Source of the DNA: Acutalibacteraceae bacterium
Lineage (GTDB): Bacteria; Bacillota; Clostridia; Oscillospirales; Acutalibacteraceae
DNA length: 64,000 bases
Direction of reading: 5' to 3'
Assembly: GCA_045590395.1 (NCBI GenBank)
Contig: JAZNQX010000063.1
Location: 5,135-69,134 of the forward strand
The notes beneath the pieces were generated by a model, which saw nothing but the letters and a program-made list of their open reading frames with translations, was not told the DNA's origin and searched no databases. A program made the position numbers and the translations under genes. Of this stretch, positions 8,770-50,049 are shown piece after piece. Position 1 is the first letter of the stretch. Every line of letters starts with the position of its first letter.

Positions 8770-8859
8770 TGGTGCGGGTGACAGGACGCAACTCGCTATG
8801 CGATTTGCCCTGCTTGACGACCGTTGCCTTGCAACAGTACCCGTCTGCGCACCACACAC
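8770..8859 (-). other. 90-nt tRNA-Leu-like element / displaced tRNA-Leu 3' fragment ending in ...GTCCTGTCACCCGCACCA
   Basis: The 18-nt 3' end (8770-8787) matches the tRNA-Leu 3' end (8977-8994) at 17/18. The T-stem GCAGG/CCTGT is retained around a 23-nt inserted hairpin. The 5' heptamer GTGTGTG can pair 6/7 with CACCCGC. No D-arm is present. It is homologous to the element at 39696-39785. Confidence 0.5.
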
Positions 8860-8931
8860 CTAAAAAACAGTTCACAGAACTGTTTTCTTAACGGCGTGTG
8901 CCTTCATAAGCTTCAAGTCCTACCACCGCAA
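8770..8931 (-). repeat. tRNA-linked conserved module, Leu copy. Order: inverted T-arm fragment, hairpin+U-run, two-tier hairpin, direct T-loop-to-CCA copy
   Basis: Shares the blocks GTTAAGAAAACAGTTCnGTGAACTGTTTTT and GACGGGTACTGTT(C)GCAArGC(G)AACGGTCGTC with 39634-39785. The inverted fragment TTCAAGTCCTACCACCGC lies on the + strand at 8912-8929. Confidence 0.6.
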
Positions 8932-8940
8932 ATAAAACAA

Positions 8941-8975
8941 ATTCCGAGCTTAACCTAAAGGTCAAACTCGGAAAT
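8941..8975 (-). terminator. Hairpin + U-run directly after tRNA-Leu (minus strand)
   Basis: TTCCGAGTTTGACC-TTTA-GGTTAAGCTCGGAA followed by TTTGTTTTATTT. Confidence 0.55.
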
Positions 8976-8976
8976 T

Positions 8977-9059
8977 TGGTGCGGGAGACAGGACTTGAAC
9001 CTGCACGGTGAACCGCTAGCTCCTAAGGCTAGTGCGTCTGCCAATTCCGCCACACCCGC
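8977..9059 (-). tRNA. tRNA-Leu (anticodon UAG), type II with a long variable arm; CCA is encoded
   Basis: The reverse complement is GCGGGTGTGGCGGAATTGGCAGACGCACTAGCCTTAGGAGCTAGCGGTTCACCGTGCAGGTTCAAGTCCTGTCTCCCGCACCA. The anticodon loop is CTTAGGA. Acceptor pair 6:67 is a U-U mismatch. Confidence 0.93.
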
Positions 9060-39510: not shown

Positions 39511-39586
39511 GATCCATTAGCTCAGCCGGTAGAGCACATGACTTTTAATCATGGTGTCCGGAGTTCGATTCTCCGATGGGTCACCA
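39511..39586 (+). tRNA. tRNA-Lys (anticodon UUU); CCA is encoded
   Basis: GATCCATTAGCTCAGCCGGTAGAGCACATGACTTTTAATCATGGTGTCCGGAGTTCGATTCTCCGATGGGTCACCA forms a clean cloverleaf with anticodon loop CTTTTAA. Confidence 0.95.
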
Positions 39587-39619
39587 AAACCCGAAGCAAA
39601 AGCTTCGGGTTTCTTTTTT
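39587..39619 (+). terminator. Intrinsic terminator after tRNA-Lys
   Basis: AAACCCGAAGC-AAAA-GCTTCGGGTTT followed by CTTTTTT. Confidence 0.75.
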
Positions 39620-39633
39620 GTTCGATAATAAAA

Positions 39634-39785
39634 CGGAGAATCGAACTCTGAGAGAGTGAGCGGCGTTAAGAAAACAGTTCGGTGAACTGTTTTTAGACGC
39701 GAAGTGTGAGACGGGTACTGTTCGCAAAGCGAACGGTCGTCGAGGACGGAATGTGCGAAGCTCATTCTTCTCCGATGGGTCACCA
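39634..39785 (+). repeat. tRNA-linked conserved module, Lys copy. Order: antisense T-arm fragment, hairpin+U-run, two-tier hairpin, exact 18-nt T-loop-to-CCA copy
   Basis: CGGAGAATCGAACTC (39634-39648) is the reverse complement of the tRNA-Lys T-arm. 39768-39785 is identical to 39569-39586. The internal blocks are shared with 8770-8931 on the minus strand. Confidence 0.6.
39696..39785 (+). other. 90-nt tRNA-Lys-like element / displaced tRNA-Lys 3' fragment ending in ...TTCTCCGATGGGTCACCA
   Basis: Same length and architecture as 8770-8859: a 5' heptamer (GACGCGA, 5/7 complementary to ATGGGTC), a 7-nt linker, the conserved hairpin at 39710-39741, a T-stem-like CGGAA/CTCCG around an 18-nt insert, an acceptor 3' strand and ACCA. 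Confidence 0.45.
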
Positions 39786-39786
39786 G

Positions 39787-39818
39787 AAAAAACGACTTGT
39801 TAAAACAAGTCGTTTTTT
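39787..39818 (+). terminator. Intrinsic terminator closing the tRNA-Lys-linked module
   Basis: AAAAAACGACTTGT-TAAA-ACAAGTCGTTTTTT. Confidence 0.7.
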
Positions 39819-39820
39819 AG

Positions 39821-39989
39821 TTATATTTGCCTACGGCAAGTTATATTGCTGTGCAGTTATATTCGGCTTACGCCGAGTGATATTGTGCTCCGCACAGTTT
39901 TATGGCAAATATAATATCACTAAAACCAAAGGTTTTAATATCACTTTTGACTTGTCAAAAATATCACTCCATCGAAGATGGAATATCAC
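39821..39989. repeat. Array of 7-mers (4x T[T/G]ATATT, then 4x the complement-orientation ATATCAC) that alternate exactly with unrelated short palindromes
   Basis: Right half: ATATCAC units at 39914, 39938, 39961 and 39983, separated with no spare bases by the palindromes TAAAACCAAAGGTTTTA, TTTTGACTTGTCAAAA and TCCATCGAAGATGGA. Left half: TTATATT at 39821, 39841 and 39857, and TGATATT at 39878, separated by shorter palindromes. Confidence 0.75.
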
Positions 39990-40088
39990 TGAGAGAGAAC
40001 AGCATCATTATGCAAATCATTGAAAAATATTGATTTGAGTTATCATTGATATAAAAAAACTGGTTTTAAAAATTTTTTCAAAAAACCC

Positions 40089-40117: not shown

Positions 40118-40136
40118 CTTTTCATACTTAATAAAA

Positions 40137-40400
40137 GCTGTGACGAAGACGGTCAAGAGTTTGTATTTTCAGAGAGCCGGTGGTTGCTGAAAACCGGTAA
40201 TAGAAATTCTTAAAAGACCCATCCCTTCCGAGCCGGAAGTCCGAAAGGTTATCCTAGTAGACGCTTCCCGTGATTGCTGCGTAAAGGCATAGGAATTGTT
40301 TGATTCCAAGAGTGGCGGAAAATTTCCGCAATTTGAGTGGTACCGCGAGTGTATTTTCACACCCGTCTCAAAGTTTCTTTGAGATGGGTGTTATTTTTTT
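40137..40400 (+). promoter_or_regulatory. T-box riboswitch leader 1; tentative specifier AUC (Ile) at 40221-40223
   Basis: K-turn base GCTGTGACGAAG...CTTCCGAGC, an AGAGAG bulge, the distal loop CCGGTGGTTGCTGAAAACCGG, the T-box AATTTGAGTGGTACCGCG (40330-40347), and a terminator at 40360-40390 plus a U-run. Confidence 0.9.
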
Positions 40401-42741: not shown

Positions 42742-42756
42742 AAGACGGATATTAAA

Positions 42757-43019
42757 GGCTTTGACGAAGAGTGCGCTTAATTCTTCCTTGCAGAGAAACG
42801 GTGGTTGGTGAAAACCGTTAGGTTGGAATTTTGTGTTTGTAGCTTCTGAGCCGGGGAGAAGAAAGTATTTAATATCAGTAGAACTCCTCCGTGATTGCTG
42901 CGTTAATGCATAGGAATTGTTAGATTCCAAGAGTGGCGGATTTCCGCAATTTGAGTGGTACCGCGGGTGTGAATATCGGCACTCGTCTCAAAGGCATTAC
43001 TTTGGGACGGGTGTTTTTT
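42757..43019 (+). promoter_or_regulatory. T-box riboswitch leader 2; putative specifier GUA (Val) at 42839-42841
   Basis: GGCTTTGACGAAG...CTTCTGAGCC K-turn helix, AGAGAA bulge, distal loop ACGGTGGTTGGTGAAAACCGT, T-box AATTTGAGTGGTACCGCG (42948-42965), and a terminator at 42980-43013 plus a U-run. Confidence 0.9.
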
Positions 43020-49779: not shown

Positions 49780-49796
49780 TATCTCAAATTTTTAAA

Positions 49797-50049
49797 TGCG
49801 ATGAAGGAATTATTCTTTATATGCGCTTGTTTTCAGAGAGTCGGCGGTTGGTGAGAGCCGATACGGTAGTATAAAGTAAGTCTCGTTCCGGAGCAGAACT
49901 GCTGAAACACAGTAAGCGGTTACGGCGTGCCCCGTTATCATGGCAAAAGGCTTGTTGGAGCCTTACTGAGTGACCGTTTATACGGTAATTAGGGTGGTAC
50001 CGCGAATATTATTCGTCCCTGAAACTATTATGGTTTCAGGGGCTTTTTA
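49797..50049 (+). promoter_or_regulatory. T-box riboswitch leader 3; putative specifier CUC (Leu) at 49882-49884
   Basis: TGCGATGAAGGAA...TTCCGGAGCA K-turn helix, AGAGAG bulge, distal loop TCGGCGGTTGGTGAGAGCCGA, T-box AATTAGGGTGGTACCGCG (49987-50004), and the terminator CCCTGAAAC...GTTTCAGGG plus a U-run. Confidence 0.9.

What the first reader, a model, noticed from the sequence alone, without database searches (positions are those of the whole stretch)
39587..39818. Conserved structured module downstream of tRNA-Lys that ends in an exact 18-nt copy of the tRNA's T-loop-to-CCA end
After tRNA-Lys and its terminator, the elements come in this order:
1. CGGAGAATCGAACTC (39634-39648), the reverse complement of the tRNA-Lys T-arm.
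2. A hairpin plus U-run, AAAACAGTTCGGTGAACTGTTTTT (39671-39694).
3. A 90-nt segment (39696-39785) containing the two-tier hairpin GACGGGTACTGTTCGCAAAGCGAACGGTCGTC (39710-39741). It ends with TTCTCCGATGGGTCACCA (39768-39785), identical to 39569-39586.
4. Another terminator.

The same layout, with the same internal sequence blocks, occurs downstream of tRNA-Leu at 8770-8931 on the other strand. There the antisense T-arm piece and the terminal 18-mer match tRNA-Leu instead. The hairpin stem shows compensatory changes (TTCGC/GCGAA vs TTGC/GCAA).

A conserved core with tRNA-specific ends is not what simple gene duplication gives. I see two readings:
- Miniature or decayed integrative elements that target the T-loop sublocation of tRNA genes. 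The 18-mers would be attL/attR cores.
- A family of about 90-nt tRNA-like RNAs. These would have an acceptor-like 5' heptamer, no D-arm, an expanded T-loop and an encoded CCA.
Basis: seen in the sequence. Interest (0 to 1): 0.66.

Follow-up and report, generated by a model that had tools for sequence, protein, structure and literature searches.

The report
Tiny non-coding element inserted after tRNA genes
The 199 bases after tRNA-Lys are a recently inserted copy of a widespread, protein-less mobile element that lands behind tRNA genes in gut Clostridia, folds into a conserved structure and carries an arm complementary to its target tRNA, which hints at an undescribed, nucleic-acid-guided way of choosing insertion sites.

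Summary

- **Recent insertion.** Two metagenome contigs of the same species lack exactly 199 nt here. In them tRNA-Lys runs straight into the second terminator. So the module is a precise, recent insertion flanked by the 18-nt repeat, and it brings its own terminator.
- **Large family.** At least 60 relatives of 137-243 bp lie just 3' of at least 16 tRNA species and of tmRNA in Clostridia MAGs, often in tandem.
- **Conserved fold.** The tRNA-sense strand forms a five-helix fold with strong covariation and U:G pairs.
- **Target-matching arm.** An arm complementary to T-arm nt ~51-65 tracks the neighbouring tRNA, including nt 57, which lies outside the repeat (32 of 32).
- **No linked protein or known family.** No protein gene is linked. 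There is no Rfam family, no phage or plasmid match, and no paper was found.
- **Repeat belongs to the element.** Off-target copies keep their own 3' repeat, so it is attP-like, not a target-site duplication.

The "90-nt tRNA-like RNA" reading fails. The "miniature integrative element" reading holds, but the element is not decayed.

Best guess: a non-autonomous element whose single-stranded fold and arm specify the tRNA target, moved by an unidentified enzyme acting in trans.

The parts
39511..39586 (+). tRNA-Lys(UUU), the target gene. It stays intact after the insertion.
   Evidence: ARAGORN; Rfam tRNA model, 67.5 bits.
39569..39586 (+). Left copy of the 18-nt repeat (tRNA nt 59-76).
   Evidence: Exact duplicate, 0 expected by chance.
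39587..39619 (+). Element-borne intrinsic terminator (stem-loop 39587-39612 plus a T run). It is absent from the empty-site contigs.
   Evidence: Terminator scan. Missing in L123 and L124. Terminators travel with element lineages in other genomes.
39620..39633 (+). A/T-rich spacer with a -10-like GATAAT just upstream of the arm. It may be a weak promoter; this is an inference.
   Evidence: Sequence. The consensus scan calls no full sigma-70 promoter here.
39634..39648 (+). Antisense arm: exact reverse complement of tRNA-Lys nt 51-65. Its first 6-7 nt pair with the start of the right repeat (helix H1).
   Evidence: Across the family the arm tracks the tRNA's own nt 57 in 32 of 32 cases.
39645..39657 (+). 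Helix P0, ACUCU-GAG-AGAGU. Its 5' strand is the end of the antisense arm and its 3' strand repeats tRNA nt 51-54.
   Evidence: Compensatory CTC/GAG versus CCC/GGG follows the T-stem of each tRNA.
39661..39702 (+). P1 (variable, covarying), internal loop GUUAAG/UA, and P2 hairpin AAAACAGUUC-GGU-GAACUGUUUU.
   Evidence: P2 is fully compensated in L129.
39704..39746 (+). P3, a two-tier hairpin (GACG-GGUAC-stem-GGU-CGUC) with a flanking 3-bp helix.
   Evidence: Covariation.
39748..39768 (+). P4, a variable hairpin with a GCGAAGC-type loop that abuts the right repeat.
39768..39785 (+). Right copy of the 18-nt repeat. It closes the fold and leaves the acceptor 3' strand plus ACCA unpaired.
39787..39818 (+). 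The host's original tRNA-Lys terminator. It follows the tRNA directly in empty-site strains.
8770..8976 (-). Second family member, after tRNA-Leu(UAG) (8977-9059). Parts: element terminator about 8976-8931; antisense arm about 8930-8908 (covers tRNA nt ~51-73 with mismatches); core 8913-8809; right repeat 8787-8770.
   Evidence: covariance model, 92.7 bits. Present in all three strains compared.

Best explanation
The segment is one copy of a family of very small (about 140-240 bp), protein-less, site-specific insertion elements that settle immediately 3' of tRNA and tmRNA genes.

**Layout.** Each element consists, in order, of:
- its own terminator;
- a short A/T-rich spacer;
- an arm complementary to the target's T-arm (nt ~51-65);
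- a conserved structured core (P0-P4);
- an attP-like copy of the tRNA 3' end that begins in the T-loop.

After insertion the tRNA is intact and is terminated by the element's terminator. The second copy of the tRNA end sits in front of the old host terminator.

**Proposed mechanism.** The tRNA-sense strand is the active form, either as a transcript or as single-stranded DNA. It folds so that the antisense arm pairs with the start of the repeat. The same arm can pair with the sense strand of the target T-arm. Arm and repeat together specify which tRNA gene is used. Joining happens within, or at the 3' end of, the shared tRNA segment. Catalysis comes from an enzyme encoded elsewhere in the genome, most likely a recombinase acting on a small circular, folded single-stranded intermediate.

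**Shown:** precise insertion polymorphism, the family and its target range, the fold with covariation and its strand, arm-target tracking, and that the repeat and terminator belong to the element.

**Inferred:** that the arm acts as a guide, the single-stranded or circular intermediate, and the trans-acting enzyme.
For: - **Empty site.** L123 and L124 are near-identical to the window but lack exactly 199 nt. tRNA-Lys is followed directly by terminator 2.
- **Family.** About 45 carry the exact hairpin next to 16 tRNA species, and one sits next to tmRNA. The covariance model finds 53 strong matches (E <= 1e-12) in 44 of these loci and only two in this window. Tandem arrays of two or three are common.
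- **Structure.** 89% of cells are paired, against 30-44% when partners are slid. There are 77 double-change cells against 26 in shuffles (0 of 500 shuffles reach the observed value). U:G pairs at three positions place the fold on the tRNA-sense strand. The Lys copy folds with z = -4.3. P2 is fully compensated in L129.
- **Arm.** The lower edge is always at nt 50-54, so the arm spans the left edge of the repeat. It matches its own tRNA at nt 57 in 32 of 32 cases (18 G, 14 A) and at nt 59 in 31 of 32.
- **Element-borne parts.** Terminators are shared by lineages sitting at different tRNAs: L043 (Leu) with L116 (Pro), and L039 with L048. Off-target copies in L129, L039 and L073:6343 keep a complete right repeat, while the left flank shares only a few bases ending in ..CCA.
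- **No linked protein.** Flanking genes are housekeeping. No ORF family recurs in more than 4 of the 69 loci compared.
Against: - No transcript, circular form or enzyme has been seen.
- The predicted circle or tandem junction of this copy was not found in JGI metagenomes.
- No full sigma-70 promoter is called upstream of the arm.
- Cores that are 98% identical sit at tRNAs with different acceptor parts, and both repeats match the local tRNA (L039 versus L043). Simple reciprocal recombination does not produce this. It needs either a two-step capture or gene conversion between cores.
- Arm-target matching could reflect how the arm is made rather than a guiding role.
Confidence: 0.5

Rival explanations
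1. Classical hitch-hiker. The element is a minimal double-stranded attP cassette, like a cis-mobilisable element. It is integrated and excised by tyrosine integrases of co-resident prophages or integrative mobilisable elements that use tRNA T-loop sites. The conserved fold would then be a separate cargo, such as a small regulatory RNA, and the arm would be a by-product.
For: - The repeats start in the T-loop and end at the tRNA 3' end, as in known tRNA-integrating elements.
- The right repeat is carried by the element.
- An integrase-bearing 4.6-kb element shares the tRNA-Cys locus with a module in L032.
Against: - That element uses the anticodon-loop site with a 48-nt repeat, not the module's site.
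- No integrase is linked to any module.
- In the predicted attP, the sequences to the left of the repeat (the P4 end) and to its right (the terminator) are not conserved and do not resemble the T-arm half-site.
- It would need a matching integrase specificity for more than 16 tRNAs.
- Double-stranded circles of 137-243 bp are sterically unfavourable (general knowledge).
- It does not explain why the arm tracks nt 57.
Confidence: 0.2
2. SINE-like retroelement. The structured RNA is copied by a reverse transcriptase encoded elsewhere and inserted at tRNA genes. The RNA would be either the element's own transcript or the stretch between two tRNA-type 3' ends of a read-through precursor. The arm and the tRNA-end copy would anneal to the two strands of the target.
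For: - The fold is strand-specific, with U:G pairs.
- The unit runs exactly from just after one CCA to the next CCA.
- In L002, L053, L058, L065 and L085 the element's terminator is homologous to the host tRNA terminator, as expected if flanking sequence is captured by transcription.
- The 18-nt repeat equals tRNA nt 59-76, the same stretch retroviruses copy from their tRNA primer (general knowledge; a lead only).
Against: - The repeat is not a target-site duplication (L129, L039).
- Copies next to tRNA genes without an encoded CCA also lack CCA, so mature tRNA was not the template.
- The promoter would lie outside the transcript.
- No reverse transcriptase gene is linked.
- Simple target-primed schemes do not reproduce the observed order of parts (own reasoning).
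Confidence: 0.15
3. A host small-RNA gene tied to tRNA operons, for example one acting on tRNA maturation or on the T-arm of its neighbour. It would spread between strains only by transformation and homologous recombination, not by transposition.
For: - The fold is conserved.
- Both tRNA genes in this window carry a copy.
- The arm is perfectly complementary to the neighbouring tRNA.
Against: - Presence or absence varies within one species with an exact boundary.
- Tandem arrays and decayed copies exist.
- Copies occur at non-tRNA sites, including inside the 3' end of a prophage serine-recombinase gene.
- Near-identical cores sit at different tRNAs.
Confidence: 0.1
4. Ordinary prophage or island scars: leftovers of large integrative elements after internal deletion.
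For: Direct repeats of the tRNA 3' end are what such scars would leave behind.
Against: - More than 50 copies share the same complete about 200-bp architecture with covariation.
- There is no similarity to any phage or plasmid record.
- The insertion is exact and recent.
Confidence: 0.02

Closest known systems
Integrative elements that use the T-loop sublocation of tRNA/tmRNA genes (tyrosine-integrase islands, prophages, integrative mobilisable elements)
   Same: It inserts at the 3' side of tRNA and tmRNA genes. It is flanked by direct repeats that run from the T-loop to the tRNA 3' end. The element supplies a copy of that segment, so the tRNA stays intact. Tandem arrays form.
   Different: It is only 140-240 bp and has no integrase or any other gene. 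It has a conserved single-strand fold and an arm antisense to the T-arm. One core family serves more than 16 tRNA species.
Folded single-stranded recombination sites (integron attC; CTX-phi attP(+))
   Same: Structure is conserved rather than sequence, on one specific strand. A fold-back rebuilds part of a duplex that resembles the target site (arm paired with repeat start, plus P0). The small size fits a single-stranded intermediate.
   Different: No R/L boxes were recognised, and no IntI or Xer link has been shown. The arm extends beyond what the fold-back needs and matches the target itself.
IS110/IS1111 bridge (seek) RNAs
   Same: A non-coding structured RNA inside a mobile element carries one segment complementary to one strand of the target and another segment identical to it. 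Specificity changes when these segments change.
   Different: Bridge RNAs use short guides in two internal loops and lie next to a DEDD recombinase gene. Those elements leave only a 2-nt repeat. Here the segments are 15 and 15-30 nt at the two ends of the fold, and no recombinase gene is present.
MITEs and SINEs (non-autonomous elements)
   Same: It is small, non-coding, multi-copy, found in intergenic DNA, and dependent on a function supplied in trans.
   Different: It has no terminal inverted repeats. Its repeat is carried by the element rather than created from the target. Its insertion is strictly site-specific, after tRNA genes.

Membership tests
tRNA-gene integrative element (T-loop sublocation) | Located at the 3' side of a tRNA or tmRNA gene, flanked by direct repeats of the tRNA 3' part starting in the T-loop | tested here: met
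   Repeat starts fall at nt 59, 55-57, 61-62 or 47 and reach the 3' end. A tmRNA case is L070.
tRNA-gene integrative element (T-loop sublocation) | Precise presence/absence at the att site between strains | tested here: met
   L123 and L124 lack exactly 199 nt.
tRNA-gene integrative element (T-loop sublocation) | Encodes its own integrase next to an att site | tested here: not met
   The element has no credible ORF. Neighbouring genes are housekeeping.
tRNA or tRNA-like RNA | Cloverleaf with an acceptor stem formed by the 5' and 3' ends | tested here: not met
   ARAGORN and the Rfam tRNA model give no hit. The proposed 5' heptamer belongs to P1.
MITE | Terminal inverted repeats and a short target-site duplication of fixed length | tested here: not met
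   The ends are a terminator and a tRNA-end copy. Off-target copies show that the repeat is element-borne.
SINE / target-primed retroelement | Flanking repeats are duplications of the target, and a reverse transcriptase partner exists | tested here: inconclusive
   A duplication origin is contradicted by L129 and L039. A reverse transcriptase partner cannot be tested without whole genomes.
IS110 bridge RNA | Two internal guide loops in an RNA encoded next to a DEDD/serine recombinase gene | tested here: not met
   No such gene is adjacent. The architecture differs.
Integron attC / CTX-type folded single-stranded att site | The recombination site is formed by fold-back of one strand and recognised by a tyrosine recombinase | not testable with these tools
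   A fold-back of the arm on the repeat exists, but no enzyme or single-stranded DNA data are available.
Any Rfam family | Score at or above the family's gathering threshold | tested here: not met
   Only tRNA and T-box models hit the window. Nothing relevant appears at E <= 10.

The most novel reading that the evidence does not exclude
A roughly 200-nt non-coding element programs its own site-specific insertion. One end of its folded single strand (RNA or DNA) base-pairs with the sense strand of a tRNA gene's T-arm. The other end is a copy of the tRNA 3' end. An unlinked enzyme uses this two-sided recognition to integrate the element. Retargeting to another tRNA needs only changes in the two arms. 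This would be a new, naturally reprogrammable, guide-directed integration system.
Probability: 0.3. Interest if true: 0.9.

Novelty: new variant of a known kind. Interest (0 to 1): 0.75.

Why it matters
- **If the arm and repeat direct insertion**, this would be a minimal, protein-less cargo that carries its own address, served by an enzyme still to be found. That is the same logic that made bridge RNAs and OMEGA systems useful.
- **Even on the conservative reading**, it is an abundant, unannotated mobile element that decorates the 3' ends of tRNA operons in major gut and rumen Clostridia.
- **Practical consequences:**
  - It creates strain polymorphism.
  - It duplicates tRNA 3' ends, which gives extra attachment-like sites for other elements.
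  - It adds terminators and possibly small RNAs.
  - It can break assemblies: contig L122 ends inside the T-arm.

Tried and rejected
- **Rfam.** Nothing at gathering thresholds or at E <= 10, including ribozyme, T-box, tRNA and HEARO models.
- **BLAST of the element against phage and plasmid collections.** No match.
- **Circle or tandem junction, and this copy's fingerprint, in JGI metagenomes.** No match.
- **A linked protein.**
  - Pfam on neighbouring ORFs found only housekeeping genes.
  - All-against-all clustering of 323 ORFs from 69 loci found no recurrent family.
- **The tyrosine integrase in L032.** It uses a different (anticodon-loop) site, so it is a separate element.
- **The serine recombinase in L129.** It is the victim of an off-target insertion, not a partner.
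- **Retro-copy of mature tRNA.** Rejected, because copies lack CCA where the gene lacks it.
- **Target-site duplication.** Rejected by off-target copies.
- **90-nt tRNA-like RNA.** Rejected.
- **Flavo-1 RNA.** Some hairpin hits in Flavobacteria lie inside the variable terminal loop of Flavo-1, not in its consensus, so the family name does not transfer.
- **Literature.** Five word searches and one sequence-string search found no description.

Full report
**1. The observation**

tRNA-Lys(UUU) lies at 39511-39586 and tRNA-Leu(UAG) at 8977-9059 on the minus strand. They are the only tRNA genes in the window.

- The 18-mer TTCTCCGATGGGTCACCA occurs exactly twice, at 39569-86 and 39768-85. No shuffle of the window gives a match.
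- The reverse complement of T-arm nt 51-65 sits at 39634-48.
- The hairpin block CGTTAAGAAAACAGTTCNGTGAACTGTTTTT occurs only at 39664-94 and at 8863-93 on the minus strand.
- Both terminators are called by the consensus scan.
- The Leu locus has the same order of parts.

**2. It is an insertion**

I used the neighbouring RsfS-like protein as a handle and recovered contigs of the same species. L123 and L124 match the window almost base for base on both sides, but they lack exactly 199 nt. In them tRNA-Lys is followed directly by GAAAAAACGACTTG..., the second terminator.

- The first terminator, the arm, the core and one repeat copy were therefore inserted together, recently and precisely.
- Contig L122 stops inside the T-arm, as expected where two alleles confuse an assembler.
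- At the Leu locus the 3' module is present in all three strains compared.

**3. It is a family**

One viral contig (L001) showed the same layout after a tRNA-Arg. About 45 of them have the hairpin within about 100 nt downstream of a tRNA on the same strand.

- The tRNAs belong to 16 anticodon species: Lys, Arg, Met, Leu, Glu, Pro, Gln, Cys, Ser and Phe isoacceptors. One copy follows tmRNA (L070). Thr and Pro(CGG) cases appear.
- Almost all hosts are Clostridia MAGs (Acutalibacteraceae, Oscillospiraceae, Ruminococcus).
- A covariance model of the core (R1) finds 53 strong matches (E <= 1e-12) in 44 of these loci, and only the two known copies in the window.
- Element length, measured repeat to repeat, is 137-243 bp. 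Tandem arrays of two or three are common, for example L005, L057, L069 and L115.

**4. Anatomy**

The order of parts is constant:
1. tRNA.
2. Terminator.
3. A/T-rich spacer.
4. Arm antisense to the T-arm. Its lower edge is at nt 50-54 and its upper edge at nt 61-74.
5. P0, a short hairpin with a GNRA-like loop.
6. P1, internal loop GUUAAG/UA, then P2.
7. P3.
8. P4.
9. Copy of the tRNA from nt 59 (most copies), 55-57, 61-62 or 47 to the 3' end.
10. A second terminator.

The first 6-9 nt of the arm pair with the start of the copy (H1). This leaves the acceptor 3' strand and NCCA unpaired.

**5. Structure**

I tested a hand-drawn structure of 34 pairs on 24 sequences.

| Measure | Observed | Control |
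|---|---|---|
| Cells paired | 89% | 30-44% (3' partners slid by 1-3 columns) |
| Cells with a change on both sides | 77 | 26 (mean of 500 shuffles) |
| Covariation score | 0.262 | 0.107 (mean of 500 shuffles) |

- None of 500 shuffles reaches the observed value on these three measures.
- P3, its flanking helix and P1 all show double changes.
- U:G pairs are frequent at three positions: 12 of 24, 8 of 24 and 16 of 24 sequences. These would be C-A mismatches on the other strand, so the fold belongs to the tRNA-sense strand.
- The Lys copy folds into H1 plus four hairpins at -59.3 kcal/mol, z = -4.3.
- P2 is nearly invariant in sequence in my sample, but the search pattern biases this. In L129 its stem is entirely replaced by compensating bases while the GGUG loop is kept.

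**6. The arm follows the target**

Across 32 copies next to tRNAs that end in CCA, the arm matches its own tRNA at nt 57 in 32 of 32 cases (18 G, 14 A). In the main classes nt 57 lies outside the repeated segment. The arm also matches at nt 59 in 31 of 32 cases.

Where the T-stem is GAG rather than GGG, the arm reads CTC and the P0 partner strand reads GAG. The arm is therefore either templated from the T-arm of the local tRNA or selected to complement it. It is not merely complementary to the element's own repeat.

**7. What belongs to the element**

- **Terminators travel with core lineages.** L043 (Leu) and L116 (Pro) share one terminator. L039 and L048 share another.
- **Off-target copies keep their right repeat.** L129 sits at the 3' end of a prophage large serine recombinase gene. 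Its left flank shares only GGGTTC... and ...TCCACCA with the element's repeat. L039 and L073:6343 have no tRNA upstream. So the repeat is carried by the element, like an attP segment, and is not made from the target.
- **The copy is of the gene, not of mature tRNA.** In L017 and L097 the tRNA gene does not encode CCA, and the copy lacks it too.
- **Some element terminators resemble the host's.** This holds in L002, L053, L058, L065 and L085. In L002 the difference includes a compensatory change, as if the element had come from the orthologous locus of a relative.

**8. Retargeting**

Cores that are 95-99% identical sit at different sites with different arms (L039, L043, L048 and two copies in L073). 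High identity runs from the arm to the first bases of the repeat and stops there.

L039 and L043 have the same T-arm sequence in the repeat, but the acceptor part is Met-like in one and Leu in the other. One possibility is that the arms are exchanged easily. An off-target entry at ...CCA followed by exit through a crossover in the shared T-arm part would create a repeat of the new type; this is my own reasoning. The other possibility is that cores are homogenised by gene conversion. I cannot tell which.

**9. No partner found**

- The genes around both window copies are housekeeping. Around tRNA-Lys these are leucyl-tRNA synthetase and RsfS upstream, and T-box-controlled AMP-binding enzymes downstream. 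Around tRNA-Leu they are GroES/GroEL and a cytidylate-kinase-like gene.
- ORFs next to other family members are unrelated host genes.
- Clustering 323 ORFs from 69 loci gives no family present in more than four loci.
- The 4.6-kb element in L032 (tyrosine integrase plus Mob_Pre relaxase) uses a 48-nt repeat reaching the anticodon stem. It is an independent tenant of the same tRNA.
- There is no similarity in the phage or plasmid collections.
- There is no Rfam family and no paper was found.

**10. Mechanism**

Mobility, site specificity, the fold and arm-target matching are shown. How the element moves is inferred.

I favour a folded single-stranded intermediate, and I prefer DNA or RNA over a double-stranded minicircle, for four reasons:
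- Circles of 137-243 bp are hard to make in duplex form.
- Structure is conserved on one strand only.
- The duplex flanks of the predicted attP are not conserved.
- The arm can rebuild or recognise the T-arm.

A recombinase supplied in trans would join the element within, or at the end of, the shared tRNA segment. The main rivals are a classical integrase hitch-hiker, a retroelement, and a non-mobile small-RNA gene. They are scored in the rival list. None is excluded except the scar model.

**11. Comparison and novelty**

The element behaves like a tRNA-gene integrative element in where and how it sits, but it fails the defining feature of carrying an integrase. It also adds two things not known for that class: a conserved single-strand fold and a target-complementary arm.

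It resembles bridge-RNA logic in having one antisense and one sense segment for the target. It is not a member of that family.

I rate it a new variant of a known kind. There is a substantial chance that the targeting mechanism is new.

Noticed in passing
window 9268-9041 (minus strand), upstream part of tRNA-Leu: A second kind of small element. A 208-nt segment flanked by a 20-nt direct repeat TGCGGGTGTGGCGGAATTGG (tRNA-Leu nt -1 to 19; copies at 9268-9249 and 9060-9041) is absent from two other strains (L126, L127). It is therefore a precise, recent insertion at the 5' part of the same tRNA gene. It contains GTGCGGCTGCCGAT, about 12 of 14 complementary to tRNA nt ~13-26 across the repeat edge. 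It is 74% identical over 113 nt to a repeat family in other Clostridia (L024), which there includes the same P2 hairpin. Only weak C/D-box-like Rfam hits were found (E 0.09-0.9).
   Followed up: partly
window 39819-39990: An array of four AGTKATATT motifs followed by four copies of the inverse motif AATATCACT. They are spaced 22-24 nt apart, each separated by a small hairpin, and lie between the tRNA-Lys terminator and the next T-box promoter. The array is also present in the empty-site contigs, so it is not part of the element. It could be a set of operators for the HTH-cupin-AMP-binding proteins encoded downstream.
   Followed up: partly
window 40131-40373, 42752-42993, 49792-50023: Three T-box leaders. 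The first two precede paralogous proteins of about 760 aa that fuse an HTH domain, a cupin domain and an AMP-binding enzyme. These are unusual cargo for T-box control.
   Followed up: no
window 8977-8994 (minus strand): tRNA-Leu in this window reads GTCCTGTCTCCCGCACCA. Two other strains and the element's repeat read ...GTCACCC.... The window's version would give a U6-U67 mismatch in the acceptor stem. This is either a real mutation or a sequencing error.
   Followed up: partly
L028 4934-5077; L096; L047; L061; Streptococcus loci L035-L037, L049, L091: The same 21-nt hairpin, with a similar GAGCGUAAAA...UAGCGAAG frame, occurs in Flavobacteria, in one case inside the variable terminal loop of a Flavo-1 RNA. 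It also occurs in tandem BOX-like repeats of Streptococcus azizii and in Spirochaete MAGs. The hairpin module may be shared by several families of small repeats across phyla.
   Followed up: partly
L129 5151-6870 (IMG/VR UViG 3300032167_002428): A family member with a fully compensated P2 stem sits at the very 3' end of a prophage large serine recombinase ORF. The ORF reads through the element's terminator and arm before it stops.
   Followed up: partly
L032 (whole locus): A 4.6-kb integrative mobilisable element (tyrosine integrase, Mob_Pre relaxase) is integrated into tRNA-Cys with a 48-nt repeat. It lies between the tRNA and a module. This shows that different elements stack at one tRNA.
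   Followed up: yes
L053, about 211-320 nt after tRNA-Lys: Behind an intact module lies a second unit that keeps the terminator, spacer and arm but has lost the core. It is either a deletion derivative or a footprint.
   Followed up: no
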